NCBI GenBank assembly: GCA_040954595.2
Contig: CM082578.2
Span: 17,615,912-17,679,911, forward strand
Reading direction: 5' to 3'
Origin: Balanoglossus misakiensis
Lineage: Eukaryota; Animalia; Hemichordata
DNA: 64,000 nucleotides
Within the stretch, counting starts at the first letter, position 1, and each line of letters begins with the position of its first letter. Below are positions 13,901-43,735 of this stretch, piece by piece. The notes beneath the pieces were generated by a model. It saw only the letters and a list, made by a program, of their open reading frames with translations, made no database searches and was not told the DNA's origin. Position numbers and translations under genes: made by a program.

Positions 13901-14330
13901 TGGTGAGTCGTGTTTTGGGTACATGAGTTCTATGTGTATATTTCAAACTCCTGCCAGGCGGTTATCAAGGCGGTTTCAGAGAGATATTTTCACCTTGATT
14001 AATATTCTCCCAGATTTATTTCACATCTGGAGAAATAGCAAGAATTCAAGTGGTGATAATTTAACCGCTTGACTGGAGACCTCAGATTTTTGTGGCTGCC
14101 TAATGTAGATGTTCATCATCACAATTAGCTTGCTCGGTCGACAAACGTTTCCCGCCCCTTCTTGTTAACCTACAGGCCTACTTTTCCCGAACGACACGCC
14201 GATCAGCGAAGCTACAAAGAAGATACGCCAACCCGGACGGCTTTTGTCAAACCAGTGCGGCGTTCACTTTGCGCGACATTGTCGGCAGCTTGCGTCGTCA
14301 CAACAGAAAGCAACAAAGAAGAAGCAATGA
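10945..14330 (+). CDS. EFCAB12: EF-hand calcium-binding protein, EFCAB12-like
   Basis: Phase-consistent exons 10945-11538, 11748-11843, 12140-12337, 12773-12926, 13138-13457, 13677-13902 and 14176-14330 (TGA). EF-hand pair IADYIHRQRIRLIELFMRVDKNKDWKVNKSQF / VDDLMMTLDTDENEELDYRHF. The N-terminal RKRIIVAPP motif resembles EFCAB12, recalled from memory and not searched. Confidence 0.7.
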
Positions 14331-23075: not shown

Positions 23076-24847
23076 ATGGCATGTGCAGGTAAGTGTGGAA
23101 TTGTAGTTAGGCCAGATGTAACTTCACAGAGAACCAATGCAGGTTGACGTACATGCCACCTTGACACCTGTTTGATTCTGTCAACCTCTTACAATACCCG
23201 TACCTTAGAATACCGACCGTCACTAATAAGCGAAATCTCGACCCCCAGATAGCGTGCGTCACTTCTAACATACTTTATATGCAAGCAGATGTTTTTGCTA
23301 ATGAAGTCTGCGCTTAAATGTGACTTCAGCAATGTGTAACGTGATAATGAATTGGGCTATATCACTCGACGCAGCGCGTTGGAGTTTGAGAACGTCACAA
23401 ATGTGGGTGGGCTGCCTTTATAATAATCGCGCACAATCGCGTATGTCAGAGAGAGGTTTCAGTGCTGGTAAATTTCCGATCACCGTTGGTTATATTTGTT
23501 TGAGGAAAAAGTTTGATTTTATAATTATTTTTTTAACGTGTTTATTTCCGCTACACAGGTCTAAACCAGCATGCGTACCAAGATCGAGACAGGCATGGGA
23601 CAGACTCTACCGCTGCCTTCGTTTTTTTACCGGACGACTCTGGACAAACGGCCATAGTCCATGCATTTTGTGATCTGATCTCACTTTTTGCCAACGAAAG
23701 ATCTACTATCAAGAAATTTAACCTGTCAAAATTAAATGACACGCAATATGCAAACGACGCGATCAGGGACTTCAATGAATCCGACAAAATCGTGTTGGTC
23801 ACATCCAAATCATTGAGGAGACTTTGGTATCAACGTGTCGACGCGGATTATTTTATTGCGGCTCTGAAACAAAGACTATCTCAAGATCCCAATAATGTCT
23901 TCGAAATATATTTCGAGTACATCAGTAACGACGAGCCGACCAAGAAAATAGCGAACACCCGTCACAAGATTTGCCCCTTTCAAACAGCAACGATAGCAGA
24001 ATTCTGTGCCGTGCTAAACCCCTTCACAGACAGAAGTTCAATGACCCACATTGAGAACACGGTCTGCAGTACACAGCAATGGAAGAAATTTGTAGACAGT
24101 ATTCGCGAACTACAGACGCGGGAAATACGCATGTCTATACAACATGTCAGAAAAACTGGATTTTCGCCATGTAAGTATAGAATTATCTCCATCCAGCAAC
24201 ATTTTCAGCGTCTGCCATACATGATTATAAATTCATGCTATTAGAATTATAGCTCTATAATTAAGTTTGTTTGGTCTTGTTTACAGGTGACATAGACTTT
24301 TGCTGTTTGGATGTCCTGCTTCAGCACAAGGTCATAACCGAAGTCGAACTCCAAATGGTCAGGCAGCAAAATAAACCACGGAAAAAGTTGCTCGCTGTTC
24401 GGCATACCATCGCGGGGAAGGTGAACATCTTCCCCGAATACCAGAAACTGGTTGACGTGTGGTTAGACAACATCGGGAGAAAATCCCACGCCCTTTTCGT
24501 GAACAAACGGCTCGTTCTCATTGATAATATCGGACATGACGTCAAGCGAATGGTGGATTACCTCATACAGGAAAACGTCATCACCGTTCACGCTGGCGAG
24601 GTCATTACCATGGGAACAGCCCAAACCAGCGCCAGACAGCTGTTGGACGAGTTGCCAAAAAGCAAGCGGGCGTTAGTGGCTTTCTGTGACGCATTGGAAA
24701 TGTGTAATCCGGGCCTTGCTAAACACCTGGACCTTAGAACGTGGATGAATGATTATGACACTGCGGAGAACAGTGGACCAGCATGTCTTCCTGTAGACAA
24801 CGGTAACTACGCACAACGTGTCTGTCTCTCTGTCCGTCCGTCTGTCT

Positions 24848-24878
<31 letters not shown>

Positions 24879-26630
24879 TGTATGTATGTCTGCCTGTCTG
24901 GCTATAATGCCATTTGATATTTGCTGTTAATATACTTTAATTCAATGTTTCTGTTCCTTGTTTATAGATGATGTGGATGGCAGATGCATCGTCATGTCAT
25001 CTATCGCCGATCGAGACTCTGGTTTGGATGTTGAAGACACTAGCGTGAGCGTGCCAACTATTCAAAAACCCACAGCCACAGAACAACTTGGATCTCCAGC
25101 ACTCCTGAGCAAATCTTCATGTCAAAGACAAAGAAGACATCGCCAATACTCTCTTTCCGGTACCCAAGTCCGGTACCAAAGTTGGGAGAGCACTGCCACT
25201 GACAGTGGTTACTGTGCAGAACACGTGGATGGCGACGATTGCTGTAGCGAGAATGGCGACGACGGTGGACTTTTTCAGCCAAACAAACTGACATACATGT
25301 ATGCTGGTAAGTGTAGTGTGGTGTGGTGTGGTTCTGTGCTGTCCTGTGATCTAATTATGTCATCTAATTCAATCTAATGTAAGCTTCACTACAGACGTGT
25401 TTTAATTGGTGTTATGGTGTCATTGAAGGTTTACAACCAGTGGATTCGCTGGAGGTGCTCAGCGTGACGTCAGATTCCGTGCACATGCGTTGGTCTGTTT
25501 CGCCGCACAACACTTCGACATCGCACCGACTCGGCTATCGTGTCACGTGCCTCCAGCTGAGCGGTCAGAGCAAGAACAGAGTGCGCTTAACGGAAGTGCT
25601 GGAATCTCCCTCTTCTACGTTGTCCTGGAAACGAGGTTGTCTGGCCGCTGGTGACTACCGCATTTCAGTGTCCGTGTTGTACGGTGAAAACAGTGGTGAT
25701 CAGCCTTGTCCCAGCGAGGCAAAATGGACAAACGTCAGGATTGGCGGCAGTGAGTACATCAACGCATTGTATTTTGAGGGACAGAGTAAATATCGGTTGT
25801 GCATCTCGATAACCAAGAGACCGACAAAGTCATTTCGCCGCAAAATCTCGGGGCCTGGCGGGTCCACGACACAGAAAGAAAATGATATTGAACATGTTTT
25901 CTCTAGAAACACATCTCTCCAAACAAGAGGCAAACGATGGATGATCGAAGTATTCGTACATGTTTTTTTCCAGATAAGCTTGGAGTGTTTGGTAAAGTTT
26001 TCCGTAAGAAATTGTCACTCTCCAAGGAAAGTTCGGATGACAGTTACAAAGGTAAAAATCTAACTATAGTTTTACATTCTCCTTCATATATATACGGGCT
26101 GCATTGTATGTTAAAATCACAGGGAAACTTTTAATGTGCCGGAGAATCATTCAAGTGGGACTGGACCTTCAATGATCACTGCGTCTCACGTGACTAGACA
26201 GGCAAGACGCGTCACGTAGATAGTGACCAATGAGCACTGAGGCAGGGTACCGACCAAGACTAGAACATTCAACACATTGGGATTTGCCTTATTTTCTCGT
26301 ACAGTACTCGTCAACAATGTGACTCCTGGTCGTGAAAGCAGTAAATCGTCAGTCAAGACGTTTGAAGTCTTGGAAGATGAAAGCATCGGTTCCAACGCAC
26401 ATCATGACGTTGGAGAGGTGAAACCCGACAAAACCGAAGTTGTCATGGCTGCCATTCTACCTGATGCCGAGGAGAGAGCATGGACCAACCCGAAATCGAC
26501 GACTCGCAGTCGGTGCTACGCAATGAGTGGACCGATGGAAAGACCAACATTTACCAGCAGCAGAAGAGAGGGGCTTACTATACGGTGCCAAGAGAAGTCA
26601 TCAGATTCTGTCTGTACCACCAGTCTGTAA
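23076..26630 (+). CDS. Cytoplasmic SEFIR + tandem CARD-like + DSG-motif linker + FnIII protein, gene Y
   Basis: Exons 23076-23088 (MACA), 23559-24170 (divergent SEFIR AFVFLPDD..IVHAFCDLI, SDKIVLVTSKSL, NVFEIYFEY), 24287-24802 (CARD-like x2: LDVLLQHKVITEVE; MVDYLIQENVIT..ARQLLDELP..AFCDAL), 24968-25306, 25429-25749 (FnIII PVDSLEVLSVTSDSVHMRW..GYRVTC..YRISVSVLY), 25974-26051 and 26305-26630. All introns are phase 1. Confidence 0.8.
24819..24900. repeat. (TCTG/TCCG/TATG)n compound microsatellite
   Basis: tctgtccgtccgtctgtctg... in the intron after the CARD exon of gene Y. It explains the VCLSVRPSVCLS tail of the raw ORF. Confidence 0.9.
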
Positions 26631-28274
26631 ACCTATGGGTGGGAAACGTTTTTTTCCGTGACATATATGGCTTTGATTTGCTACAGGAGAACCCTGAACA
26701 TTTCCTACTTCAACGCAGAAACTATTTACCTCAAATGAGAGCCGATGTTTTAGGCCAAATAGGCCTACTGGTGTCAAACATCGACATTTTCTGCAAATGG
26801 TGGGTCAGTGGCGTGCAAATGTCCATATTTGGTGGGGTTGAGGGGTCAAGAGACACGCTAGATCTTGAGATGGTGGTAGAACTTAACCACCATCAAAACC
26901 AGTAAGCGCTGAAACATATATTTACAGTTTACACCAGAGCCCTTAATAGTTCCAATTCACCGCCTCACGACAGACACTACCTGTAATGTTAAATTTAACA
27001 CTGTTGGGGGTCACTCACAAAACAAATGGGTCAAGCACGCGGAAGTGTCACTGAAAGAAGGACAACTTTTGGCACGAGAAATATTATACCGTGGCAAAAT
27101 ACAGTGGGTGTAGATGATTGCGAGCGTAGATAAGAAGGTTGATTTATTATTTTTTATTTACAATGGCTATTTGTACTTAGGTACAGAATATGTAGTTTAA
27201 GGGCTAGTCAGCATAAAATTAACCAAAGTCCGAATTCCTCCTACTGGTAACAGGCACAATGGCAGATGAGATCACGTGATGTGCAAACCCACATAAATAC
27301 TTTGAAATCGCTCATGAAAATGGTTCTTAAATCTCCATTGGCTATTTTCAATTTGTTAGTATTTTTGTTCGTTTAAACAAATACGATTTCTTAATCCCTA
27401 TAGCATGATGAAATGTCGAGTATTTGACCTAACTACGGTTCCTCCAAGGTGAAGGGACTGTGGCCTATAGCAGAAAAACAAGAAACTACAGTTAACACAC
27501 AGCTCAATGTCAATGTAAAGCGGTGTTATACACAGAAAGATAACACTCTGTTTCAGTCGGACAAAGTAATAAAACCTTCTGAGACATACCACTGATTTTG
27601 ATAAAAAGCAGAAGAATCTTTAATGGCTGAGTGATAGCACACGTCACTCATTACCAATGAGTAAATAACAGTGTCCTGATTATATTTTTTTCGAAGTTGA
27701 CTTGGCAGATGCATGTAACGTTAGGAATAATGTTCTTGGATATCAATGTCCCTGAAATATCAACACCCTGTATTCTGGTCTGATTAAATTTGGACAGTTG
27801 TGTCTAGATCCTGTTTCTTCTACACCACTTGCATATTAGTGAAGTTCTTGGACGCAAAAAGCACCATGTAATTTCTCCATTAACATCGTGATGGACAGCC
27901 AGCGTGTCCTTCTGTTTGTCCAGGAAATGGTCCTGGGTATTGGCAAAGGTTAAGTGACGTGAACCCGATCACGTGTGCGTGTACTGATGAAATGCACGGC
28001 TGCGCATTTCTCTGGCAATGTCAAATGGAAAATACAAGCAGTCTCTATCGCTGTAATTCGTAAGCTGAAAATGTTTGTAAAAATAGCAACTGTATTCGTG
28101 TTGGGTCCGTTTATTGCGCGCGTATTGTAAAAAAAAACCCAAAACGCTCAGTCGACATTTGTGCGTCGTCCAATATGTTGTAAATTTTACAGAGTACGGG
28201 GACCCGTGACAAAACAAGATCCTGTTATCGCGTGAGCTCATGTCCTGGCACCGTCTGTACAAACGGCATTTCTG

Positions 28275-31200
28275 TCAGAGATACGTGTCTTGTTCGTCGT
28301 CAGACGCACACTGATCAAAAACTCCGCTGTCTCTTTCTCGTTTGCCTGCATGTGGGACATTGTCCATTTTTTCTTCCAAGCAGTGGTTGACATGAATGAA
28401 TACGCCCGCTTCCCGGACATTCCCGGGAGAGGGTTCTTCGTCTGTGGAAAGAAACAATCAGATAAACCGTGAGAACACAAATAATGACTAAAGAATTTAA
28501 TAGGGAAAATAGACTAACATGGAACCCAAATATTGTTCACGTGAATGCGTTTCGTTTGAAAATCTGTGATTGGATATATACGATTTCCCCATGGAAACAG
28601 TAGTTAAATTTGCTTTAATGACCGTATACATAATTAATGGTCAGCCACAAACATAGATGTGAAAATGTACATTTTGAACAATTTGTTTTAGGCGTTTATT
28701 TTCCCAAGTACTTTTGGCTTTTGAGACAATTTCCAGTATTGTTTTGTTCATATTGTATGTGTGTATTCTGGCGCCTGGTTTCGAATGTCTTTTTGGTTTT
28801 CATACCCAAATACAACTCACTTAAATTTGGAATCCGAATAACGCAAATTGTAATACCCGCATTGTCTAAATAAAACGACTTAACCACTTATTTAATAAAA
28901 GTGATATTTATTACTTCATGATGAAACGTTTCATCATCAAGAAAACCACAGAAGCTGACGCACTCCACGATCAAAATCAACATAAACGGGACAATTATAT
29001 TCTATTGGCCACTTCAACTAGGGAAAACCTTGAAACGATTTATCAAGTTCAGATGATCCAATACTAATACAAGTTATCATCACCTTTGATGTCATGGCCG
29101 ATCTGTTGTGTTGTGAGTGAAGGGTCCTCCTCAACACTTTCTGTAACTTGCTTCGGTTTTCTATTCGGCTTCGCCCAAGCACTCACCGCGTTGGCCCGTG
29201 GGCGAGACCGCACGCGCATAGAGTTGGACCGGATCACGCTGAGTCTTTTACCGTACACAGAGGTTGGGCGACTCGTAGTCCTGGTCTCGACGACCCCCTT
29301 GTCTGTACACTGTGAGCTGTGAAGCGAAGTTGGTCCGACTTTCTCGGCTTCCGCGCTGTTTCCTCCGAGTCGTGCGCCGTTTCCTCGGCAGGTTCCCTTG
29401 TCACCGATGATGTCGCCGCGATTGTCGGCAACTACAATCGATTGTCGAACGATGCTCCGCCTGTGAACCGCTGTACCCCCGGATTTAGACACTCGGCTGA
29501 CCAGTTGACACTTGCCTATAACCATAAAAAATACAGCGGATTGCTACCAAGGGTGTTGAGTGACACGTGGATCGCAATTAACCTGTATTGACAGCACCTA
29601 TGCAAGATGCTAAAGAAAGTCGATACATGTATTTATTTGTGTATTCATGAAAATAAATAGATTTATCATATGAATCCAATCACATGAATCATAATCCGAA
29701 TCCGAAATTAACTGTTTGCTCCCACACCACCATCCATCCATCCATCCGTCCATCCATTCATGTCATCCATCCATCCATCCATCCACCCACCAATCCTACC
29801 ATTCTGTTCGTCACGGGCCACACGTTACGTACACATTTGTCAGCCTACCAAACGGTGAATTCTTGGCGAAGCCACCAGTCCGATATTAATGGCAACCCAC
29901 CCGCAGTCAATCAAGTACTTCAAGGATTAGCGACAACTTACTGTGCCCGACGGTGACATGTGTCCACTTGGCGGGGCTGAGTATATTTTGCTTTTCACCC
30001 TCGTACATCACCGACACTGAAATACGGTATTCACCCCGGGACAGGCATCCTCGTTCCCAGCTCTTAATAGAAGGGGACTTCATCACATCGCAGATAGGTG
30101 GCGAGGTATTCTTTCCCCCGATGCGGAGACACGTCACGTGGTACCCGGTGTGATTTGATATCGTTTCCGGCAGAGACCACCGTATGCGCACAGAATTCGA
30201 CGTCACGTTCAACACTTCAAGAGACTCGACTGGTTGGAATCCTGTAATTTTGATATTTGAAAGATTTACTTCGCTATAAGTTGTGGACAGATGTTTCATC
30301 GTTGTTTGAGAAAACTCCCAGAATGCACATGGATATTGCCCCTAATCAGCCCCCTGTAACAGGCGATCTTCATATACCATAACTTGGATCTGTTTACAAA
30401 AATATATATATATAACACAACTATTTGTTAAACACCACAAAAAATTAATGTATCCCCGAAAACGTAAAAGCAATTAGAAGACTCATTTTCAATTTAGTTT
30501 CTTGGCCGCCGAAAGGGTAATATCTTTAGAAACGTATGTTATATCGGTGGTGGCAAAATATGGGGTTTGTTTTAATCTCCCTCGCTTCCTGAAATTCTAC
30601 CCGCAATAAGTTGGTAAAATTGGGGTTAACGTACAGTGTACCAGGAAGTGCGTTAGAATGTTGTAACATGTGTCTATGAGGTGGGTTCTATAACAGGTGA
30701 GAGACTATGTTGTACAAGGAACCTGATCTGTTTATTAAGAAGGCGCATGCCTACCGGGAAATGACACTGGAACAAAGAGAGACTCCTCGCTGAGCTTTGA
30801 ATTCAACTTCGGTTTCTGAGCATCATCAGACTTGTCTGTCGCGGATACATGTTTTTCGCCATCGTCAGGGTCATGGTCATCCTCTGAACTCGGAGACTCG
30901 TTATCGTCTTCGTCGAATTCTTTGCATAATTTGCTGTATTCTTCTTGTGAGACGGTCACTTTTACACGAACGTCTCTCCCCTTGGCAATTCTCTTCACAT
31001 CTTCGTTAATCAGGAGTTTTTGGAGGATCTCTTCCAATTCGCCTGTTTGACTGTCTTTATACAACCGCTGCAAACCCGGTTTGTTCTTGACTTTCAAAAA
31101 CAAGAGTATGCAGCCGATTTTGAGATCGCTGATGTCGACCGAGTACTTTTTGTCCAGCGTAGCGTCGTGAGTTAAGCGTAGCCGACCTTTAACTATGTAC

Positions 31201-34200
31201 TCTTCGATATCTTTCACTGTGGATTCGCCGTCGCTTGAATCTTCGCCCGAATCTGAATCCAATTGAACTATCTCTACCACCACCCTCAGGGTTTTCGGCT
31301 TGCCACCTGGAAATGAAGAGAAAAGTGTCAAGCGATAATATACAATGATAATAGTCAAACAGAGATATACACAGACAGATTTTAAAACAAGAAACCCTAT
31401 AAACTGGCATCACTACATGCCTGACCTCTACACATGGACGAGTGTGAGTAACCAAACCATTATACCATATGAAATTTACCTGTTGTCTTCGCGTACCGTA
31501 CCGCTACCGTTTTTTGACTTCCTGAAAAAATAAGAAAAAATACCTGCATCATTTCCATTCATCATCCCTAAAGCAGTTTATCATAAAATAATTTACAATG
31601 TGGTCCACATAATCTCCAGCTTTTTGTTCCTGCATTGAGTTTAGAACTACATGATTATAGTTTTTTGCGTCGAATTCAGTACAAAGCGTACTACTAGTAT
31701 ATTCGAATAACATCCTAATGAGTGTGCATTGAACCTACCTGCCTGGTGATCAGGTGTGATCGACTTTTCGGCAGATTCCAATAGTTCAAACAGATGCGGA
31801 TAAGGATCCCTAAGAGATTCTTTAAATTTCTCATAGACAGCATCGGTTGGCGGGAGTTCACTCAAAAGGCGGCGGGCTTTACCGCGCATGGTCGGCTCGG
31901 CCATGATGACGTCATACGCCGAACGACTAATGGCGTCTTCTTGCAAGAGGTGGTCTAACACGTACTTCACTTGTAAATCCTGAACAATTTTAGTCAAATT
32001 CTGTCTCACGGGACCAACATAGTCTTTAGTTGCTAGTTGTCTGTAATGTTCCAACAAATCGGCATTTTCCAGATCCAATCTTCCCCCATCCGCTGTGAGC
32101 ACATTTGTTAACTTGTTCACTTTGTTGAAGAAAACCTTCTCTTCCAAGATGCCATCATAATACTTCTTCTTAATGACTCCTTTTTCATACAGCGCGTCCA
32201 AATAACCATCAAAGTCCGCTGAAATAAGGAAAGGAATTATGTGAAAATTCTTTACTGTGTTGTCCCTAAAAGTGCCCTTAACAGCTTACTCACTGAGGCT
32301 ATGAGCACAACACCACACACCATATCACACACGTGTAGATATTTTGATCACCTCTAAGCTACCGTGCACTATCTGTACAAACCTGGACAAAGGGCCCCGT
32401 GGGTTTCCGTCCATTCTGGCTCCCCACTCTCCGTAAAACAGGCAGAATCATGCTCAACGACATTGGTGCTTTTGCCCTTCCGCGGGAATTTTTTGCTGAT
32501 TCTTTTCCGGTCATGCGCACTGGAGCGTCGTCTGCTCGTGTAGCGACGTGTGACGGTGCTGAACCCACCAAAAGAAATCGCTTTCCGAGTTTTAACACCT
32601 TCGCCCAAGACGTCGATACCCGAGTCTCTGTGTGAATATTGCCAGTCTGTCTCGTTCTCCAGGCCGCTGTTCTTATCTGTTGGTCAAAAGAGTTGATTTT
32701 ATTATCATATTGGTTAACATACTCAGTCATACCGCCAGTCTCAGATAATCACTGTGACATTTTGGATACCAATGACAACAGTAATGTAAACTCATACACA
32801 GAAATCACAAACGTTGTAATTCAAACATGCACATATACGCAGATTCACAAATAAAACTCGATGCAGCTTAACTAAATTCGGCCCATAAGACTAAAAATTG
32901 TAATGTTGGTCTACGGTTTACCTTTAGTGGGACCATTTGTACCTCCACCGGTCGTGACACTGGCCGCTTGACAACCTGTAGCCCCCTCCACAATCCCAGA
33001 GTCGCGGTCTTTGTTTGGACATTTCATTTCAAGGCTTGGTTCTGGTTCTGTTGAGGAATCGGTTTTCAAAGGGGAGCCCGTTTAGTATTTCTCATCGAGA
33101 TCGCTGTTTTCTTATATGCAAATTCCTTCTACCGTGGTGTTTAAGTATATTGCGGTATTTGCATTTCCTACCTGACTTGGAAAGTCCCTGTGAGTCAGTG
33201 TCCAAGACTACAAAGGCTTCCACAATAATTCAGACATCGGCTCAACTTCCGCAAAGTCGGTCAACTGTGACTACCCTTGCCACAGTAGCCATGTTTTGAC
33301 CACGAAGGAGGAACTTAAAAGTTTCAACTCACTACGATCAGCAACTTTAACAATAATTTGGGACTCAAGAAATGTTTAAAAAAATAATACTAGTATTTGC
33401 CGTCAGTTTTTAAAACCCAAAATAATTCTACTATCATGATGACAGACTTGAAGTTAAATTGTAAGCTCACAAGACGAAAAGAGAGGCTCGTGATATGGTG
33501 TGTCGTGTCCCCCATAAAAATAGTTTGTTTATCAGCCACTATAAGCCATAGGTGACTGCTCTTTCTGAATTATTGGTCACGTGATAATGACGTCACTCTT
33601 TACAGTTGCTTCTTTCCTCCTGAGAAGGAAATGTTTAGATTCATTCACACACCATCATTTGACGTCAAGTGTGACGAGCACTTTCCTCGTGATCTATATT
33701 GAACCTGTCAGAACAGTGCTTGGCTCTTTACACACTTTGGGACACTTACTGTCTCTTTGCAAACATTAATACACTCACGCAGTACACACAGATTGCATAA
33801 TTTCGAGCGTGGTTTCACTGCCCTGGTAAGTTAGCAGTTTTTTTCATACGCTACTGCACGTAATCATTTAACGCTGGGAAAGTGACTATCACCGAGTACA
33901 ACAAGCATTGTGTCTATGTCATACAGAACTAAAATGGGTAGAAGACAATTGCGACATTTTGTCCACAAACGACAAGATATTGAAAGAGGAAGTAAAGCGT
34001 TGACCGGTGGACTATTGACGACAGCGCAATTGTCTTCCTACAATGCCATTTTACATCACAGAAGAATAGCCGTCTTTGCAGTCGCATATGCCATGACGTT
34101 GCACCATTTTACTGTGATCAGCTGAATTCTTTGACGGCGTTTGTCGATGAGTAATCGACTACTACTTCCCCATTTTAGCATCGTCCAGATAACACCGCTT

Positions 34201-34817
34201 TATTGTTGTGTTCATGTTGACTTTTCGGAATATACGATGTCAAATTTATAACTGTTATAATATCGCGCCCTTTAGTTATTGTTTAACAACGGCATATGAC
34301 GCCACGTTAAAAAGTTTCTTGGCAACGAAAGACAATTGCACGACGAAGTGGCACTGCCGGTAGCTGAAGCGGGTATTATGGTATATTTTGGTCTTCGGAA
34401 ATTGTGCTTCCATCTCAACGGGGCATTATTAAGCCTGTCACCAACACGATTCCCAACACATATAAGGCTTAGCCTGCACGGCTGGCTATTGCAAATTCAA
34501 CTGTAGTGGCTCCAAACAGGTTATCACTTATACGGTAAATAAATCATATGCTACATCTCGTGGTACACTCGCCCTTGGCTGTTGGTTACCGTTTAATTTT
34601 GCTTCTGTGCGATATACGTCTCACCGGCACAGAAAGACAGCATAATTATTGATAGGGGCCCCGGACCAGACCCTCTGCAACTCAGATCCCATCCGAGGTA
34701 AAGAGAAGTTTTTTTCCAAAGAAAGCTGGTCTCAAAACTGTTACCTGTTGGTGCAAATCACGGCAACTTACCTTCAGACCGGTCTGTATTGCTGTCGGCA
34801 CCAACGATGTCTGTCAT
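28275..34817 (-). CDS. Cytoplasmic DSG-motif + tandem CARD-like + TRADD-N-like + FnIII protein, gene Z (no SEFIR seen)
   Basis: Exons 34817-34772 ([15 protein letters not shown]), ~33207-33172, 33047-32922, 32676-32383, 32218-31739 (CARD-like x2: [54 protein letters not shown]), 31521-31480, 31306-30755, 30241-29942 (FnIII), 29515-29084 (or read-through to a stop at 29064) and 28441-28275. All introns are phase 1. The 5' exons are less certain. Confidence 0.75.
29729..29792. repeat. (CCAT)n microsatellite
   Basis: catccatccatccatccgtccatcc... in an intron of gene Z. Confidence 0.9.
30755..31306 (-). CDS. Exon of gene Z encoding a TRADD-N-like domain
   Basis: [55 protein letters not shown] fits the G-S/C-I-x-L..L..L..D..G-x-L..L..LI..V.EEY pattern of TRADD-like N-terminal domains found in invertebrate death-fold proteins. 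Recognised by eye. Confidence 0.65.
33179..33188 (-). promoter_or_regulatory. Canonical NF-kappaB site GGGACTTTCC in the 5' part of gene Z
   Basis: + strand GGAAAGTCCC is an exact match to the classical kappaB decamer. It overlaps a predicted small exon. Confidence 0.35.
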
Positions 34818-36353
34818 ATTCAGTAAGTGAATACTGACGTCCTAAATTGTAAAATATTTCCCTGTTGGAGCAGGGACTTCACATCAGATCTCGAGACCAG
34901 GTACTTGTGGCTCGGCGGGAAAACATATAACTACTAACTAGGAGTGTCATCTGCGTCTGCGTCTAGTCTGTGCAGGGGATTGCCCATGTGTGTACCTGTG
35001 CACAGGTACTTCCGTGTACTCTATATTTAGATGGGAATTGCTTCCTGGTACCAATTTGGGGGGAAAAAATCGGTAACAACATACTAGTAAATTCTCGTGC
35101 TCGTGAGTAGCAGTGTCTATGGTTACAATAAACAACCACAAACAACACATTGAACATCAGTACGTGTGGTTTGGTGTTAACGCACAACAATACGTCTTGT
35201 TCACCAATATTTAAAGAGGCAATATATTTTATCCACAGTTACTATGTTTGTTTTTATCTCAGAAGATGCAGATAATGTGTATACTGCATTGTCATAACAA
35301 AAAATAAACAACAACAACAACCCCATAACGTTTTATCGCTTCCAACAAAGTTTAAACGGGGATCGAGAAAAAACAGCATGTCTAGATTGAACGGATATTA
35401 TTTTTGACAGTACAAATGAGTTGTGGTACGATTGTTTCTGTTGTTGTTTTCATTGACTGATGTGTATGGTTTTGTCAGCCTGACCAGGTGGACTTTTATT
35501 ACTGGTTGTCGTTTGCGTGACCAGGTGTTGATGAATAATTTATCCGTGCACGTGTACAGTGTAAAAGGCCTCGAGGCGTCCACGTCACTTTGTCTTCTAC
35601 GGAAGAACTTGAAAGTCCCCGTGTGCGCCATGCAGGCAAGTGCGGAAAGGAGGACGATTAATAGGCCCCTACAGCGCCAAAGTTTTGGATATGTCAACGC
35701 TACAAACCTGAGGAACCACAGCGGCGTGTGTGTGCGGTCATCCGTCTTCGTGTGCGAACGGCTGTCCGTGAACTCTTGGGTGGAACTTCGAATTCACAAG
35801 TTACTTGCCCCGATGACTGTTGCTGACTCTGTGTCGCATGCGGTGTGCAGGTCATTGTTTACAACCAAGGAGCATTCCGAGGCTGACGGGTTGGTTTGAC
35901 TGTTTTACACCGCCAGCTTTATCAGTTGTAAGACCTAGTCAAGTTTGGTCCGTAGAAATGTGAGTAATATTTATTTTTCTCTTTTACTTTCACAGACTAA
36001 TTCGTTCATCAATCTAAAAATGCAATGAACCTTATTCCCTCTGAATGTTTTAATATCTGCAAGACAGACACACACTACGCAGCTAGAGACGCGGCTCCAT
36101 GACATCAGACTAGCCAGGGTGAAAAAAAATAAGAATTTTATTAGTAAATTAGTAAACATAAAGATAAAATCATTCCAGACTGCTTAATTTGAAATTGTTA
36201 ATGTGTTGTTATCCCTGATTAAAATAATGTGATGTCAATAAAAATATATTGTTCTCTTTAAAAAGAAATAGGGCCTAAATGCCAATATTGTCAGTTTACC
36301 GATTCTACCCCAATAATAATCAAATTTAGGAATTAGGAATGAATTCCAGGAAG

Positions 36354-39300
36354 TCACGTGTTCAAACCACTATTTTGAGTATTGCAAATCGTGGACTGTT
36401 CTAAATTCAGCTTCATTGCGAAGTTACTGGAGACTGTTGATGCAATGCTGCGATTGTCCGAGTCCCCGTGATATGCAAAGTCTGCATTATTTGGGGCGCC
36501 CTCAACAGGACATGTGACATCACAAGTATCTGTTGGTTCAATGCGGACCGAGTGTTCGTGCGCATCACCGGCTTGTTGGAGATGCATTGCGTTCAGACTT
36601 TCTGGAAACTGAACGAATGTCGGTGGGTCATCAGAGAGTTGTGGCGACGAACATTCTGAAAAGTATCCCGTGTCGGGTTGACTTGGCGGGACGTGGTATT
36701 CAACGGGTGTGGCAACTCCGTTACACCGATGTGGTTTTTCTGCGTACTGCATCTCGTGAGAATCACCGGGACCTCGACACTGTGGCCGACTCGGCGTGTT
36801 TTCATCCACCCCAAACGAGTCGGTCAACAGTGCAGTACCTGCACTATGGTTTCTATCTGCTGTGAGATTATTATTTAAGATCGTGTGTCCAATTATTCCG
36901 TTTTGCGCGGCTTCAAGTCGTACATCAAGGTCGTCGCACCTGGGATTATCAAACCAGTCAGGGCAGTTACCCACGTGAGTTTTCACTTTTCCGATGGTGG
37001 CCAGCAAACCCTTTCCCTCGGAGGTGTTGTTAAGAAGATTCTTGAATCCCTCCACCTTGCGATGACCTCCGGCTGACCCCAGAGAAAGATTTCGGAGATA
37101 AATGTACAACTCTTCAAGATCTTTCGGCACTTTAAATGACTTACTTGAGATGTATTTTGCTACATCCGGGATATACTTGGCTTCGGAATACCCCGGTATA
37201 TTGAAGTGAACGTTGATGTACTTCTTGAGACGCTCGGAGTTGGAACTGAGGTCGGCTCGCATGACGCTCAACGCCACCGAAAACAGGTAATTGTCTGCCT
37301 GGTCTGAGTTGAGTCTGTGCGTCTCTTCGTCTGGTGATGTGGATGAATTCTCGCTCTGCGTTCCCCTGGAAGCGATGACGACAATTTTGTCCGCTCGATT
37401 CATTTGATCTATGACCCAGTCTGTCACGCTTACTGCAACTCTGCTCGATTCCCAGTAGTCGAAGACGACCTTGCAGCAAAGCACAATTTCCAGGAATACA
37501 GCGAAACTCTGCACCAGATCCATGTGCAGATCAGAATCCTTGGTGTACAGCAGGAGAACAGATGGGTTTGCTATTCCTGGACAATAAAATTAAACCAGAA
37601 AAAAAGGTTGATATCAAAAACATTAGTTCCAATGCAACACCAATCACGATATAGACTGGCGTTTCTCGATCCAAATACATGCATTTGGGGTTTATTTCCT
37701 TCAGCCTGTTGTAGTCTTTAATGTTGGCACAACCATAGACAGTTGCTAAATCATCTGTCAATGAATTGTAAAGTCATAATTGCAACCAAGGAATAATTCC
37801 ACTGACCTTCGATGTCATGTCTCTGTTGATCATTCAACCTAGAATCCGGTACTGCGATTGGTAGCGCTAAAAGTTGGAAGGAGAGAAAATACCCAGATTT
37901 TTAGATCTAACTATAGAATGAACAAATTGTTCAACAACCGTGATGATATGAGAGAGCTATAGAGCGGTAATTGTTAATTTTTAATGAGAAATTATCATCG
38001 CATAGACTAAAATTAAGACTTTGTAAGCTAGAACCTTGAAAATGTTTGACTTTGTAGGCTGTATAACGTAAGAACCACGATTTTTCGGAAAGAACCACGG
38101 CTATGCATGAAACTGCCTATCTAAGAACATGTACGTTACCAATTATAAAAGAAAATGAATCAGATCAATAACGGTTACACAGTAAGGTGCATGTCTGTGA
38201 GGAAAATGGCAAATAAATACTCGTATTTCTTTTTTTCAAACGGTTCAGCATTTCAACATAACTTAATTGAACCAACAATGTACAAACAAAGCGCTTTAAC
38301 ACGGGCCCGTTATTTCGACAGTTGGTATAATGTATACTTACGTTTTTGGCGAAACTTCCAATAACACACCGCTGCGACAAGTATAAGGCAAAGCGCACCA
38401 AACACGCCAGTAGGAGCGGCTATAATCTTTCCCGGATCTGTACCGGGACCTGTGTCGGAAGAGATCAAGTACAGAAAATAAAATGTTGTCCAGTAAAATC
38501 GCACCTGAACGATGGTAATTTTAAAGCTAGTCGATATGAGACAAGAAATCGGTTCAAATCGCTCAAAGTTTATTTTTTCAGCTATCCACACTGACGTCTC
38601 CAAGTCAGAAATAAACACCATCGTAGTCTTTTCCTACTTATTGAATATTTGCGCGATTAATTTAAGCAAAAAGGGGGGAATTTGACTCACCACCACCTAA
38701 CAGGATACAGATTCCATCACGGTAGGCGTGACCAGTGGAACAACTGCAGTAATACGCATGCTCGGTTCGAACGCAGTCTCCCATCACACACGGATCATGC
38801 AAACAGTGGTCCTCTGCAATGAAAGAAAATAAAATAGTTTAGGTGAGTTTTTAGAGTGTGCTTAATAGCCGAAGTTGAGCAGGAAACGTTAGAATCGTAA
38901 CAAGCAGGTTGGGTGAAAACAGGTATACATGTACATGTACATTGTTGTCCCGCCACAAGATGGCAAAAGATGGTCATGCGGTAGTAAGAGAAGGAATGAC
39001 TGAAGCTATTTTAGCGCCTAAATACACTTCAATATGGACATAAAGCTTCCGTTGGGGTATATAGTGAAACTGTATATAATGATCAAGTTGCTTGCCTTTG
39101 CATGTGTAATCTTCGAAATAGTACCCGTATGTACAGTTGCACGTGTAGTGCGTGGCATTTACCGACGCACAGGTGTGGTTAGCACCGCATGGCTCAGATA
39201 GGCATACGTCTCTGTCTGCAATCAAAGGGAAATGTACTGCTTGAGCTAATGGGGTCAATATCAATAACCCTCATACCAGGTCACTTTGTAGAAAACACAC

Positions 39301-42300
39301 TATAAGAAGATTCATCTAGTTGATCAAATCTTAGTGAGCTCACTATCCGACTATAGTTTCGTCGACGCCACATCCACCCAACTAAACGCTGGCTTTATAA
39401 ACCTACACCATTTATTTCTCGCAGGTCTAACAGAACAACGATTTCGTTGAAACCATTAATTAATTAAGACGGAAGGCAGAAGAAAATAGAGGTGGTTGTG
39501 GAGGAGTAGTAGTAGAAGAATGGGCCAAACAATGTTTTTAGGTCACCCTTTATTCATAGTCAGTGAACCATAAATGCAAACAATTTCTGTCGTGTTCTCT
39601 TAAAATACAGAAACGAAAGAAAGGTGTGTAGAGTACGCCTATGAACACTCATTTAGTAGTCGTATATATAAACATTGCTGTCGCTTATGGGCGCCTTTCT
39701 CTACCTATACCCATTATGTTATATCCAGCCGGTGGTTTGACTCGTGCAAATACTGTCACAACAACCAATTCAAAATTTGCTCCAGGATATTGTGTTTCGT
39801 TTCTTCTAAGGCAATGCCTAAAAGTCGCTTACCTAAAACTTCAAATTCACCGCTAACGGTGGTTCTACACGAAGAGATGACTTTGCTTTGGATGTGACAC
39901 GCAGACGCTGGTACAGGCTCTACCTGGATGCAAGATGTAAAATCAGCCATTTTATTCACAGCATCATTAAATACGTCTTAACCATAAGTTCCTGAGATTA
40001 CATTTCTTACGATTGCCAATACGGAAAATTACGTATTCTGGCCAAACTATTAAGAACTGTATTCCGTGAAATAGTAGTACATGTAATACAATTGGTATTT
40101 GTCCCTCGAATGCCAAAACCACATAACTTCGTCGTTGTGACCACAGAACAGGTGAAGCCAGAATTAATCTTACCTTTACGCAATAATTTCTTGATTCAAA
40201 ATACTTCTTAAAAGTGTATTCAAAGAACGTATATGCATGGCCATCAACTGTTTCATTGTAAATCTTGACATCGCTGTCATTCTGTGTGATAATCAGAAAT
40301 TTATGCATTGGAAATAAGATTAGGACATCGATGCTAATCCATCAAAGCGCACTGAACGGGATCTTTTTGCCAGTTGCCTTTTTGTACATTCTAATACGAT
40401 ACTCTGTGATCCAAATACTTTGCAATTCCAATACGATTCGTATGCAAGAACCAGTAATCACCTTGAACACCGTGCTCTGACGTACAAACGTTGAGCACGG
40501 AAACCCTTCCTTGTCGCTGTCATACTTGTGGACGTTGATGGAGTACGCGTTCAAACCGTAACTATCGGGAGGAAGGTCAAAGGTGACTCTAATCGTGTTG
40601 TAGGTGGGAGACGACGGAGTCAAATACACCGGTTGCCAATAGGATGCCTCTTCTGAAAAATAAGACAATGTTGTTCAATATATATTTTGTTGTAAGAATA
40701 GCTTCTAAGGTTTATTCAATGATGAATGTCGAAAAACTGATTTATTGATAACTTACCTCCTGGTTTGACTAGGCATTCTGCAATCTGGCTAATTCTGGGA
40801 TCACCACAAGCTGCAGATCAATAAATATTATATCGTGATCCATATATGACTAAGGGCCTACCGTTAAACAAGGATTCTGTTGAATAACTGAAAACACACA
40901 ATCTATTCGCACGGGACAACAAAGACAAACTCACATGGTGTTAACAAGCGATGACTGATTTGTGTCGACGTTGGGCCAATCTTTCCGTCCGGGGAGGTCT
41001 CATGCGTGACCGGTAAGATTCGAACCACCAGCTGGTACTCGCTGTACGGAGCCAGCGGTGGAAAGCAGTCGAAGAAAAAAGAGAGGTGTCGACCCTGTGG
41101 GCGAAAAAAATGTACGTGCGTTTGCATCACTGAAAAGATGTTTATGATAACACATACGAGAATGCTACAGAACAAACCGAGTTCATATTTACTGACATTT
41201 ACAGCCAACAGGTAGAAAGTAAAAATCTACGCGTTGACGTAAAAATTACAACGCGGCGCGGAAGACACTGCGGAAAATACTCACGTCAACGTTCCTGTAG
41301 TCATTCCCGGTCAAATTGAAAGTAACACATCTCTGTTGGTTGTAGTAGTTGTATTCGTATTCCGTGTGATGGGTCAGTCCACTCAGTAACAAATGGACAC
41401 CCACGGGATTGTCTGAAACGGGAAGAGAAGTGGGAAATATAATGGGTACTGTCTACACGCTGTTTTGATTAACCATACAGTATGCGTGTCACCGACTTTG
41501 TAAACTGAAAAAAATAAATCGGTAATCGGATTCCTTGAAATCCAAAAGAGGTCATAGAACAGGCACATGTTTCACCTCGCGTTTCATGAAATAATAACGC
41601 AGTCTACCGACATCGAAATGAATGCTATTGTGAAATCGATCGATGTATTTCGGCCATTCATATTCATTAAATAGTCAACACAGATTTAGCAAATCGCAAG
41701 ATTTATTTGACGGAGATTCAGTCACTATCAAATTATAGGCCCAGCCAACGTGATTCCATCAAAGTACATTGATCATGCTCTGATATCACAATTCGACCCA
41801 TAATACATCGTAAAGAGCAATGAATAATGCTGTCACTCTCCTAATGAATGCCGCGAGCTATTCTGTATAGTTGGTATATACTTACTTTGGAATGTATCAA
41901 TGGTCCAAGACATGTTGAGTATGATGTGTGTCTCTGTTACATTATCAGCTGTGACTCCAGTGATTGTGTCCCACATGGCCTCAAAGTTTCTGGGTTTATC
42001 AGGAATGTCTGTCCATGGTACTGGGTCTCCTATATCTACACACTTTGACCCTGTAATATTATTTCAATACATGTAGTCTGCAAAGTTTACTGGCAATTTG
42101 CATTAAGCTCTTCGAAATAAGAAGGTAGAGAACTTGCCGGGAATAATCATTTATGAAAACGAATTAATAACCTTACCACTTTGGATGACGTCACACGTGA
42201 CTTCTCCATGTGTCATCTGAAATGGACACAAAAAAGAAATCAGGGCTAAAACATTTTACATCTTAGCAAAATAGCTGAGATCGCTCCTTGTACGGCAAAA

Positions 42301-43418
42301 ACGGAAAATGTGTATTTTTGCAGTGTAGTTGTGATGATGTACGTTTCGGGGCATGAAGAATTGTCTTTCCATCGATTGAGGACAACGCCATGATGAAAGG
42401 CACATCTTGAACCACATGTCACGATCTAAATAACTTTCGTTTCTGTTCACCGTGTTCCGAAACAGTTCTTAATTCTTATTTTGTATGCGACATTTTATTC
42501 ATTTGTCTCTCTTTATTGCTCGTAGGTTTACGCGACCCCATTTTACTTCTCAGCGAAAGTCCAGGAAAACTCACTGGAAATCGCCTGCTAAAACGCCATG
42601 AGTCTGCCATTTGTGGTTTTCGGTCATGTCAGTCCGACATATGATTAATTTGATTATATTTAGCTACCAATAATACTATCTAATACCAATCAATGATCTG
42701 GGCAAACATGATAAACCAATAATTGGTTTGAAGTATAGCCAACGTGATGACCACACGGCAAACATTCCCTGATAGAGAGCAAGTTCTTGTTGAAGGCCAT
42801 TCGGGGCGATTTGAATTTTAAGGAAATGATGAATAATTTATGAAGTCTAAAAAGCTAGTCACGTTCACAACACCACATATGGATTTCAGGATGCTATTTC
42901 CTGGTTCATTATCTGTGACACCATGTTTCGTGGAGTTAATCGAGAGGTATTACCAAACATTAGCGTGTCGCTCCTTTAAACGTCTTCATGGGGGAACAGT
43001 CTAAATATAACTGGGATGTCGTTTTATACGATTTATGAGTTAAGCGACGTCAACAATGCAAGCCATCTGACCGGTGCATTCATCACCTGCCGTCGAATAG
43101 TCTGTCAATAGTGTTCGCAGCGCAGCAACCAGCGCAGTTAATAAATACACGTGTGATCACCTATGCTGCGCAACCTGTTTTTGTTATTGTCACTTTTGTC
43201 AACAAAAATAACGACGAACGCCAACCGGATTTCTTTCCGTGGCTTCTCTCCGATAACAATGAAAGGGCAGCCGGACGTCTTTTTACCTGCTGTGAACACT
43301 TTCCCAACCGTTGACGAATACAAGGTCGCTCCCAGCTCAATTCTTCTCTACAATGTACGACGCACGCCAATGTCAAGACCAGAAATTCACCAAGACCCAC
43401 ATTATTAAGTCCAGCCAT
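36354..43418 (-). CDS. IL-17 receptor-like gene C: signal peptide, FnIII-like ectodomain, 2 EGF, TM, SEFIR, long tail
   Basis: Phase-consistent exons: 43418-43287 (MAGLNNVGLGEFLVLTLACVVHC), 42216-42177, 42050-41886, 41412-41285, 41094-40935, 40810-40757, 40652-40462, 40281-40174, 39923-39833, 39215-39096 (EGF), 38813-38691 (EGF), 38449-38342 (TM IIAAPTGVFGALCLILVAAVCYW), 37866-37807 and 37576-36354 (SEFIR PSVLLLYTKDSDLHMDLVQSFAVFL, ADKIVVIASRGT, KYINVHF). Confidence 0.88.
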
Positions 43419-43735
43419 GACGAATACATTCACCTGAGTGGCCCTTTCCACTGTCACACCTGTCGGGGTAGGGGTAGGGAGGTAGTCAACACATTGCGAC
43501 TCAGTTAAATTCACAGATTAGCATATTCAAATGATGGCGGTGGTATCCGCGAAGTTTACACATAGTTGTATTGTATTAAAAACGCCACGGGCAGTTGTTG
43601 TCCTGGTTGGCTGCTTTCTGTTCGGCCCTGAAACACTGCTCGATATTGTTGTCTTCATCACATGGAATGCATGGTGCAGTGAAAGTCACGGACTTGTGTT
43701 TAGGAATTTATTCGTGGTGTGGCCTTTGAGACATA

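What the first reader, a model, noticed from the sequence alone, without database searches (positions are those of the whole stretch)
30755..32218. Gene Z joins tandem CARDs to a TRADD-N-like domain and lacks SEFIR
Seen: the CARD exon is followed by a TRADD-N-like exon. Established: the TRADD N-domain binds TRAF2. Inference: Z could be the second tier of a relay (receptor SEFIR to X/Y SEFIR, X/Y CARDs to Z CARDs, Z to TRAF), or a dominant-negative modulator. Receptor, adaptor and TRAF recruiter would then be encoded side by side.
Basis: partly seen in the sequence, partly recalled or inferred. Interest (0 to 1): 0.7.

Follow-up and report, generated by a model that had tools for sequence, protein, structure and literature searches.

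The report
Acorn-worm CARD scaffold beside IL-17 receptors
An acorn-worm gene inside an interleukin-17 receptor cluster encodes a CARD / TRADD-like / fibronectin-III protein without a SEFIR domain; it likely acts as an inducible brake on the pathway rather than a TRAF recruiter, and a database model in a related worm splices its TRADD-like exon onto the neighbouring receptor, which would give a SEFIR-less IL-17 receptor.

Summary
Z is a predicted 812-aa gene (34817-28275, minus; all introns GT-AG, phase 1): disordered N-terminus, half CARD plus full CARD, TRADD-like N domain, FN3, tail; no SEFIR. Orthologues in Ptychodera, Glandiceps and Saccoglossus keep this order. The domain folds like TRADD-N (pLDDT 88.6; 1F2H Z 5.7, 10% identity; 81, 100), but Kaur 2021 already lists the Saccoglossus orthologue as CARD+TRADDN-DEDD2+FN3, not TRADD clade, and says TRAF/MATH is not a universal partner. 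So 'TRAF recruiter' is weak. More likely Z is a CARD-docking feedback modulator: kB/AP-1/CRE/C-EBP sites cluster before exon 1 and DSG motifs recur (70, 95; post hoc). Unexpected: P. flava RefSeq isoform X1 of this gene joins the upstream receptor's ectodomain, TM and juxtamembrane exon to the TRADD-like exon, skipping SEFIR and CARDs; the same splice is in frame here. It is unverified by reads. No binding was tested successfully.

The parts
34772..34817 (-). Z exon 0, candidate first coding exon (ATG, phase-1 donor); least certain exon
   Evidence: ATG to GTAAGT donor, in frame; only 20% identity to P. flava
33179..33800 (.). Candidate second promoter/enhancer of Z: kB site 33179-33188, AP-1 33191-33197, E-box 33577, CRE 33588 and 33660, C/EBP 33793
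   Evidence: only place in the window with all four classes in 700 nt; motifs chosen after seeing them
32922..33047 (-). Z exon 1, disordered, first DSG motif, in-frame Met
32383..32676 (-). Z exon 2, basic disordered stretch, second DSG motif
   Evidence: no Pfam family
31739..32218 (-). Z exon 3: partial CARD plus complete CARD
   Evidence: 67% identical to P. flava XP_070559423.1
31480..31521 (-). Z exon 4, 14-residue linker
   Evidence: AG/GT, phase 1-1; a linker of like length in P. flava
30755..31306 (-). Z exon 5: TRADD-like N domain (DEDD2 type, about 31304-30900) plus acidic linker; the exon to which P. flava isoform X1 splices the receptor
30731..30754 (-). In-frame read-on past the exon-5 donor to a stop overlapping AATAAA: possible short isoform without FN3
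   Evidence: sequence only
29942..30241 (-). Z exon 6: fibronectin type III domain, paralogous to the FN3 exon of Y
   Evidence: (fn3 E 3e-5)
29084..29515 (-). Z exon 7: low-complexity tail with RxRxxA[VIM]S motif
   Evidence: (donor 29084 scores best of 9 in-phase donors against P. flava)
28275..28441 (-). Z exon 8: terminal exon, third DSG motif, stop; AATAAA at 28115
37807..37866 (-). Juxtamembrane mini-exon of upstream receptor R3; phase-1 donor, in frame with both the R3 SEFIR exon (230-nt intron) and Z exon 5 (6500-nt intron)
   Evidence: homologous to the last receptor exon in P. flava XP_070559421.1
38342..38449 (-). Transmembrane exon of receptor R3 (ectodomain exons run to about 43420)
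36354..37576 (-). SEFIR terminal exon of receptor R3, ending 1.5 kb upstream of Z exon 0
   Evidence: (SEFIR E 2e-21)
23559..26630 (+). Gene Y (last five exons): SEFIR, half CARD plus CARD, linker, FN3, tail; convergent with Z
   Evidence: orthologue P. flava XP_070559425.1
16521..17822 (-). Gene X (last two exons): SEFIR, half CARD plus CARD

Best explanation
Z is an acorn-worm gene encoding a predicted cytosolic, non-enzymatic protein (half CARD plus CARD, DEDD2-type TRADD-like domain, FN3) that likely works as an inducible feedback modulator of the IL-17 receptor cluster it sits in, likely docking by CARD on the SEFIR-CARD proteins X/Y rather than recruiting TRAF. Steps: (1) shown: architecture, no SEFIR, conservation in four enteropneusts, shared CARD exon with X/Y, shared FN3 and tail motif with Y. 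(2) inferred: NF-kB/AP-1/CREB/C-EBP signalling switches Z on through the site cluster before exon 1. (3) inferred: Z's CARD joins CARD assemblies of X/Y; lacking SEFIR it cannot dock on the receptor itself, so it would cap or redirect them and compete for partners of the FN3 and tail it shares with Y. (4) inferred from Kaur 2021: the TRADD-like domain is an internal hinge between CARDs and FN3. (5) inferred: the repeated DSG motifs are phosphorylation sites that limit Z's lifetime.
For: Gene model open over 9 exons, all phase 1, matching P. flava XP_070559423.1 exon by exon (CARD 68%, TRADD-like 46%, FN3 54%). The 4 hits at E<=1e-10 of 25 in 1.84 billion representatives are two P. flava isoforms, Glandiceps XP_077984785.1 and Saccoglossus XP_006812311.1. 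The Saccoglossus protein is published as CARD+TRADDN-DEDD2+FN3. X, Y and Z share a first CARD that starts at profile position 18-21 and align over the whole exon. Y and Z FN3 exons are 67% identical in DNA over 270 nt, inverted, and share an RxRxxA[VIM]S motif present in 5 of 6 Y/Z proteins (the sixth model ends after FN3). All four site classes fall in one 700-nt window only before Z exon 1 (2 of 1267 windows; 2 of 200 shuffled sequences had any such window); C/EBP sites typify IL-17 target promoters (PMC4552893). DSG[IVFLY] occurs 3 times in Z and 7 times in Saccoglossus against a shuffle mean of 0.1 (0 of 2000 shuffles each). In amphioxus a CIKS lacking its Death domain inhibits signalling, a precedent for partial adaptors as brakes.
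Against: Z's CARDs are only 22-30% identical to those of X/Y and form a separate branch; sequence kinship does not show binding. CARD+TRADDN-DEDD2 occurs 49 times in Kaur's table with no IL-17 link in the stored part, so such proteins can work elsewhere. The promoter test is post hoc and the sites lie in the first intron if exon 0 is used. The DSG motifs lack the second serine of the canonical DSGxxS degron (consensus recalled). Glandiceps has just 1 DSG motif (P=0.05). Nothing here distinguishes inhibition from activation directly. Synteny outside Ptychodera was not tested.
Confidence: 0.4

Rival explanations
1. Z works in another CARD pathway (caspase, RLR- or NLR-type) and sits beside the IL-17 receptors only because local exon duplication from Z helped build Y.
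For: CARD identity to X/Y is low (22-30%). Nearest solved CARDs by sequence are cIAP1, Apaf-1, RIPK2 and NLRP1, all weak (E 0.007-0.09). CARD+TRADD-N proteins are common in marine invertebrates. Y's FN3 is closer to ptychoderid Z (48-52%) than Saccoglossus Z is (23-27%), as expected if Y took these exons from Z late.
Against: The half-CARD plus CARD exon is shared by X, Y and Z and by no other frame of the window; Y-Z adjacency seems kept in P. flava; a P. flava isoform links Z to the receptor itself.
Confidence: 0.25
2. The locus is a shared cassette: besides the soluble CARD protein, exons 5-8 of Z serve as an alternative cytoplasmic tail of receptor R3, giving an IL-17 receptor with TRADD-like and FN3 domains in place of SEFIR (decoy or alternative-output receptor). 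This can hold together with the best explanation.
For: P. flava XP_070559421.1, named isoform X1 of the same series as X2/X3, has signal peptide, ILCR1-Ig and EGF matches and a TM helix, then the last 526 residues of X3. Its junction falls exactly at the end of the juxtamembrane mini-exon and the start of the TRADD-like exon; both sites exist here, phase 1, in frame. The receptor half matches R3, the gene directly upstream on the same strand, slightly better than R4. Receptor-like TRADD-N proteins are known in oysters.
Against: One automated model in one species; no such fusion among the Glandiceps or Saccoglossus hits. Every intron here is phase 1, so in-frame joining is expected by default. 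R3 has its own SEFIR exon and AATAAA signals at 36142, 35975 and 35500. Read-through transcripts between close genes are often noise (own knowledge).
Confidence: 0.2
3. One reading: receptor SEFIR to X/Y SEFIR, X/Y CARD to Z CARD, Z's TRADD-N domain recruits a TRAF and activates NF-kB.
For: Fold agrees with TRADD-N; the beta2-beta3 small-residue plus Ser/Cys motif, whose Ser67 touches TRAF2 in TRADD, is kept as Cys in all four orthologues; X and Y have no conserved PxExx-type TRAF6 motif between Y and its orthologue, so they might need a recruiter.
Against: DEDD2 clade, not TRADD clade, which is confined to vertebrates; MATH not a universal partner; no PF09034 match; profile A2 does not find TRADD among solved structures at E<=10; TRADD binds TRAF2 through a hydrophobic sheet pocket, whereas only 7 of 34 strand columns are invariant in the four orthologues, mostly on one alternating (probably buried) register; Cys at that site is common in the family (12 of 21 rows). 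Canonical Act1 is reported in hemichordates.
Confidence: 0.15

Closest known systems
DEDD2-clade TRADD-N proteins of marine invertebrates (Kaur et al. 2021, PMC8195603), row XP_006812311.1 'CARD+TRADDN-DEDD2+FN3'
   Same: This row is Z's Saccoglossus orthologue: same domain order, TRADD-N between two globular domains, GC/AC turn motif.
   Different: The paper treats these as fast-changing, lineage-specific expansions; Z keeps one architecture in three worm families, has no enzymatic effector, and lies in an IL-17 receptor cluster, which the parts of the paper I searched do not mention (SEFIR 0 hits).
Vertebrate TRADD
   Same: A death-fold domain joined to a TRADD-N fold; structural match to 1F2H (Z 5.7, rmsd 3.8, 104 aligned) and 1F3V (TM 0.48).
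   Different: CARDs N-terminal instead of a C-terminal Death domain; 8-10% identity; extra FN3 and tails; TRAF binding not shown.
CIKS/Act1 and invertebrate Death-SEFIR adaptors (Chen et al. 2024, PMC11087794)
   Same: X and Y combine SEFIR with death-fold domains; truncated adaptors can inhibit.
   Different: Z has no SEFIR and no conserved TRAF6 motif; X/Y have SEFIR first and CARDs after, while CIKS types T1-T4 have Death first; 'CARD' does not occur in that paper's main text.
Receptor-like TRADD-N proteins of Crassostrea virginica (Kaur 2021)
   Same: Extracellular part, TM helix, intracellular TRADD-N, as in P. flava isoform X1.
   Different: Oyster proteins have a cysteine-rich ectodomain, DED and an NCOA6-clade domain, and are whole genes; X1 uses an IL-17 receptor ectodomain by splicing across two genes.

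Membership tests
TRADD-N superfamily (PF20694) | beta-alpha-beta-beta-alpha-beta RRM-like fold with kinked helices | tested here: met
   pLDDT 88.6, four strands, both long helices broken; 1F2H Z 5.7, tied with the top rows of 48,161 chains (Z under 8 alone shows only a common arrangement)
TRADD-N superfamily (PF20694) | small residue plus Ser (or Cys) at the beta2-beta3 turn | tested here: met
   Gly-Cys in Z, Cys in 4 of 4 orthologues; definition
TRADD-N superfamily (PF20694) | Pfam score above the curated cut-off | tested here: met
   24.2 against 23.7 (marginal); the three orthologues fall below it; 19 of 24 search hits scanned match PF20694 at E<=0.05
DEDD2 clade of TRADD-N | placement in the DEDD2 branch, death-fold domain before TRADD-N | tested here: met
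   by orthology to XP_006812311.1, labelled TRADDN-DEDD2; I built no tree of my own for this domain
Vertebrate TRADD adaptor | PF09034 TRADD_N match | tested here: not met
   not listed
Vertebrate TRADD adaptor | C-terminal Death domain | tested here: not met
   only CARD, TRADD-like N and fn3 in orthologues
Vertebrate TRADD adaptor | conserved hydrophobic pocket on the sheet face that binds TRAF2 | tested here: inconclusive
   strand columns mostly variable, but model coordinates and a residue-level superposition were not available and strand 1 is uncertainly aligned
Vertebrate TRADD adaptor | binding to a TRAF MATH domain | not testable with these tools
CIKS/Act1 adaptors | SEFIR domain | tested here: not met
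CIKS/Act1 adaptors | linear TRAF6-type motif (PxExx-aromatic/acidic, recalled) kept in orthologues | tested here: not met
   Z's one match is inside FN3; none in P. flava or Saccoglossus
Tandem-CARD proteins (RIG-I/NOD2 type) | two complete six-helix CARDs | tested here: inconclusive
   second complete, first covers profile 19-59 of 85; the CARD pair was not folded alone
IL-17 receptors (for P. flava isoform X1) | IL-17R-type ectodomain and TM helix | tested here: met
   Ig_ILCR1 E 0.004, EGF; exon by exon match to R3
IL-17 receptors (for P. flava isoform X1) | cytoplasmic SEFIR | tested here: not met
   none; TRADD-like N and fn3 instead

The most novel reading that the evidence does not exclude
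Acorn worms run a CARD-wired IL-17 module in which one locus yields three products: a SEFIR receptor, a soluble CARD/TRADD-like/FN3 regulator, and, by regulated splicing across two genes, an IL-17 receptor whose SEFIR tail is swapped for a TRADD-like plus FN3 tail. It would be an IL-17 receptor signalling without SEFIR and the first named upstream input for an invertebrate TRADD-N protein.
Probability: 0.2. Interest if true: 0.78.

Novelty: new variant of a known kind. Interest (0 to 1): 0.5.

Why it matters
Invertebrate TRADD-N proteins are numerous and none of those in the sections I read has a tested partner or pathway. Z offers one stable, conserved case with candidate partners next door (SEFIR-CARD proteins X and Y, four receptors), so both the 'hinge' model of Kaur et al. 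and TRAF binding can be tested by simple co-expression. It also adds CARD-based wiring to the known Death-based invertebrate IL-17 adaptors, and the P. flava isoform, if real, shows how a cytokine receptor can exchange its signalling tail by splicing between neighbours whose exons are all phase 1. The bare architecture is already catalogued, which caps the score.

Tried and rejected
Complex prediction of Y CARDs with Z CARDs gave 'no answer' (0.12 and 0.06, mark 0.34; alignments not used, controls not folded): no evidence either way. No RNA holder was listed for 27500-36500, so no splice junction could be read; no whole genome is held. Single-sequence folding of the TRADD-like domain failed (pLDDT 35.9) and was not used. 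Foldseek gave no match at E<=0.001; 1F3V was rank 36 but had the highest TM (0.48) and probability (0.66) among the rows shown. The pdb_via second look was not run. Word-index search with the TRADD-like exon found nothing among 837 candidates although orthologues exist, so blanks from that tool mean little; the CARD profile search found Y's orthologue but none for X. Caspase-3 hits to the domain (E 0.65) are chance. Of 25 representative hits I left five out of alignment A2: P0009 and P0010 (bacterial repeat proteins, no PF20694), P0007 and P0008 (two copies each) and P0004 (same domain as P0001). My first exon-7 donor (29252) was replaced by 29084 after comparison with P. flava. Atlas search with Y's orthologue returned Death-SEFIR clusters under 0.9, leads only. 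Earlier-findings look-ups were empty. Searches for TRADD-TRAF2 contact residues found nothing usable.
Full report
Setting. The window is animal DNA with short exons. It holds four receptor-type SEFIR exons (360-1256 +, 1758-2747 -, 36354-37576 -, 46402-47715 -) and two SEFIR exons followed by CARD exons, genes X and Y. The nearest proteins found are from acorn worms, Ptychodera flava first.

Gene model. On the minus strand nine exons from 34817 to 28275 have GT-AG borders, all introns in phase 1, and give one open frame. With the exon-7 donor that scores best of nine against the orthologue, the protein has 812 residues. P. flava XP_070559423.1 (869 aa) matches it in order: CARD exon 68%, TRADD-like exon 46%, FN3 exon 54%, disordered exons 14-35%, and the same C-terminal end. 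Exon 0 is the least sure; P. flava isoforms X2 and X3 also differ in their first residues. The splicing rests on sequence and orthology, not on reads.

SEFIR and CARDs. A profile of the window's six SEFIR exons finds no seventh in any frame; the orthologues have none. The second CARD is complete, the first covers Pfam positions 19-59 of 85, and X and Y begin theirs at 18 and 21. The CARD pair of Z is 22-30% identical to X/Y and 30-70% to its orthologues; X and Y group together.

The TRADD-like domain. PF20694 scores 24.2 bits against 23.7; the Atlas gives 0.95 to TRADD-like N clusters. A full HMMER search gave 25 hits, the 4 best being two P. flava isoforms, Glandiceps and Saccoglossus proteins. 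With 20 of these 25 as alignment, AlphaFold2 gave pLDDT 88.6 and a four-strand, kinked-helix ferredoxin-like fold. Against 48,161 chains TRADD-N (1F2H) ranked third, Z 5.7, rmsd 3.8, 104 aligned, 10% identity, tied with unrelated ferredoxin-like folds. So the fold is compatible, and the family assignment rests mainly on sequence. Kaur et al. 2021 list the Saccoglossus orthologue XP_006812311.1 as CARD+TRADDN-DEDD2+FN3 and 'CARD+TRADDN-DEDD2' occurs 49 times in that table. They confine the TRADD clade to vertebrates, say MATH is not a universal partner, and propose that the domain holds its two neighbours inactive until a signal arrives. The turn residue equal to TRADD Ser67 is Cys in all four orthologues, which favours a kept interface of some kind, but 12 of 21 family rows have Cys. 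TRADD uses a hydrophobic sheet pocket for TRAF2; only 7 of 34 strand columns are invariant in the orthologues, five of them core-type hydrophobics in alternate positions. I read this as weak evidence against a conserved TRAF site; I could not see which face is exposed.

Link to the IL-17 cluster. Y's orthologue is XP_070559425.1 and Z's isoforms are XP_070559421-423, all on a contig of 47,311,355 bases; adjacency is inferred from this, not from coordinates. Y and Z share FN3 exons (67% DNA identity over 270 nt, inverted) and a tail motif RxRxxA[VIM]S. Y's FN3 is nearer ptychoderid Z than Saccoglossus Z is, so Y may be an X-like SEFIR-CARD gene that gained Z's 3' exons; six sequences and unequal rates make this tentative. 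Hemichordates are reported to have ordinary Act1, and amphioxus CIKS binds TRAF6 itself.

Signs of regulation. A perfect kB site at 33179 lies 2 nt from an AP-1 site, with two CREs, an E-box and a C/EBP site within 620 nt. Only 2 of 1267 sliding 700-nt windows hold all four classes, both here; 2 of 200 shuffled sequences had any such window and 0 of 200 had kB and AP-1 within 20 nt. The motifs and width were chosen after I saw the sites. DSG[IVFLY] occurs 3 times in Z and P. flava, 7 times in Saccoglossus, once in Glandiceps, twice in Y and its orthologue, against shuffle means near 0.1. The likeness to beta-TrCP degrons is recalled and imperfect.

The unexpected isoform. XP_070559421.1 (1015 aa, 'isoform X1') begins as an IL-17-receptor-type protein (signal peptide, ILCR1-Ig and EGF matches, TM helix) and ends with the last 526 residues of X3. 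It matches receptor R3 exon by exon, slightly better than R4. Its junction is the end of the juxtamembrane mini-exon, homologous to 37866-37807 here, joined to the start of the TRADD-like exon; in this window that splice is in frame across 6500 nt and skips the SEFIR exon and Z exons 0-4. Skipping five exons rather than joining the first available one is odd for random read-through, but it is one automated model, and phase 1 is universal here. I give it 0.2 as a functional product.

Mechanism. Most likely (0.4): an inducible, CARD-docking modulator of X/Y complexes with an internal TRADD-like hinge. Rivals: an unrelated CARD pathway (0.25), receptor-tail cassette (0.2, not exclusive), TRAF relay (0.15). 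Architecture and gene identity are near certain; every interaction is inferred.

Literature seen. PMC8195603: abstract, passages, sections 8, 10, 11, 12, 13 and two term searches in supplementary file 4, which was cut when stored, so its zero counts for SEFIR and IL17 hold for the stored part only; other supplements unread. PMC11087794: parts 1-2 of 6 and passages; its dataset and SI, unread, may list hemichordate SEFIR-CARD proteins. PMC5457136, PMC7593343, PMC6125299, PMC4552893: passages only. Park 2000 and Ryzhakov 2011: not seen, known through citation. No paper held both 'TRADD-N' and 'SEFIR' or 'IL-17 receptor' and 'Ptychodera'; 'SEFIR' with 'hemichordate' gave 4 listings and SEFIR/CARD searches 3 each, seen as listings unless named above. 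Subscription journals were not searched.

Verdict. Real, conserved, already catalogued as an architecture; new in its IL-17 context and in the possible tail-swap isoform. Interest 0.5.

Noticed in passing
window 16521-18119 (-) and 23559-26630 (+): X and Y are soluble SEFIR then CARD-pair proteins, an order not among the CIKS types T1-T4 of PMC11087794; Y's orthologue exists in P. flava (XP_070559425.1), none was found for X.
   Followed up: partly
window 25427-25690 (+) and 29992-30243 (-): Inverted 67%-identical FN3 exons; Y looks like a chimera of an X-like front and Z's 3' exons.
   Followed up: partly
window 30731-30754 (-): Reading past the exon-5 donor meets an in-frame stop overlapping AATAAA: a possible short Z ending after the TRADD-like domain. 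The Glandiceps model ends just after FN3.
   Followed up: no
window about 29180-29205 (-), about 26500-26530 (+): RxRxxA[VIM]S motif kept in 5 of 6 Y/Z proteins; resembles AGC-kinase pseudosubstrate sites (recalled, untested).
   Followed up: partly
window 28278-28290 (-): Z and its P. flava orthologue both end in Thr-Tyr-Leu, a class I PDZ-type end (recalled); Saccoglossus does not.
   Followed up: no
window 36354-43420 and 46402-60590 (-): R3 and R4 are tandem paralogous IL-17-receptor-type genes with EGF repeats before the TM helix; two more receptor SEFIR exons face each other at 360-2747.
   Followed up: partly
window about 10930-14070 (+): Exon-like ORFs of an apparently unrelated gene between the receptor pair and X; no credible Pfam match.
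   Followed up: no
P. flava accessions XP_070559421-425: XP_070559424 was not returned by any search; it may be a fourth isoform, perhaps the SEFIR-bearing receptor.
   Followed up: no
window 29735-29795, 24822-24900, about 47760-47815: Tetranucleotide microsatellites in introns of Z, Y and R4.
   Followed up: no
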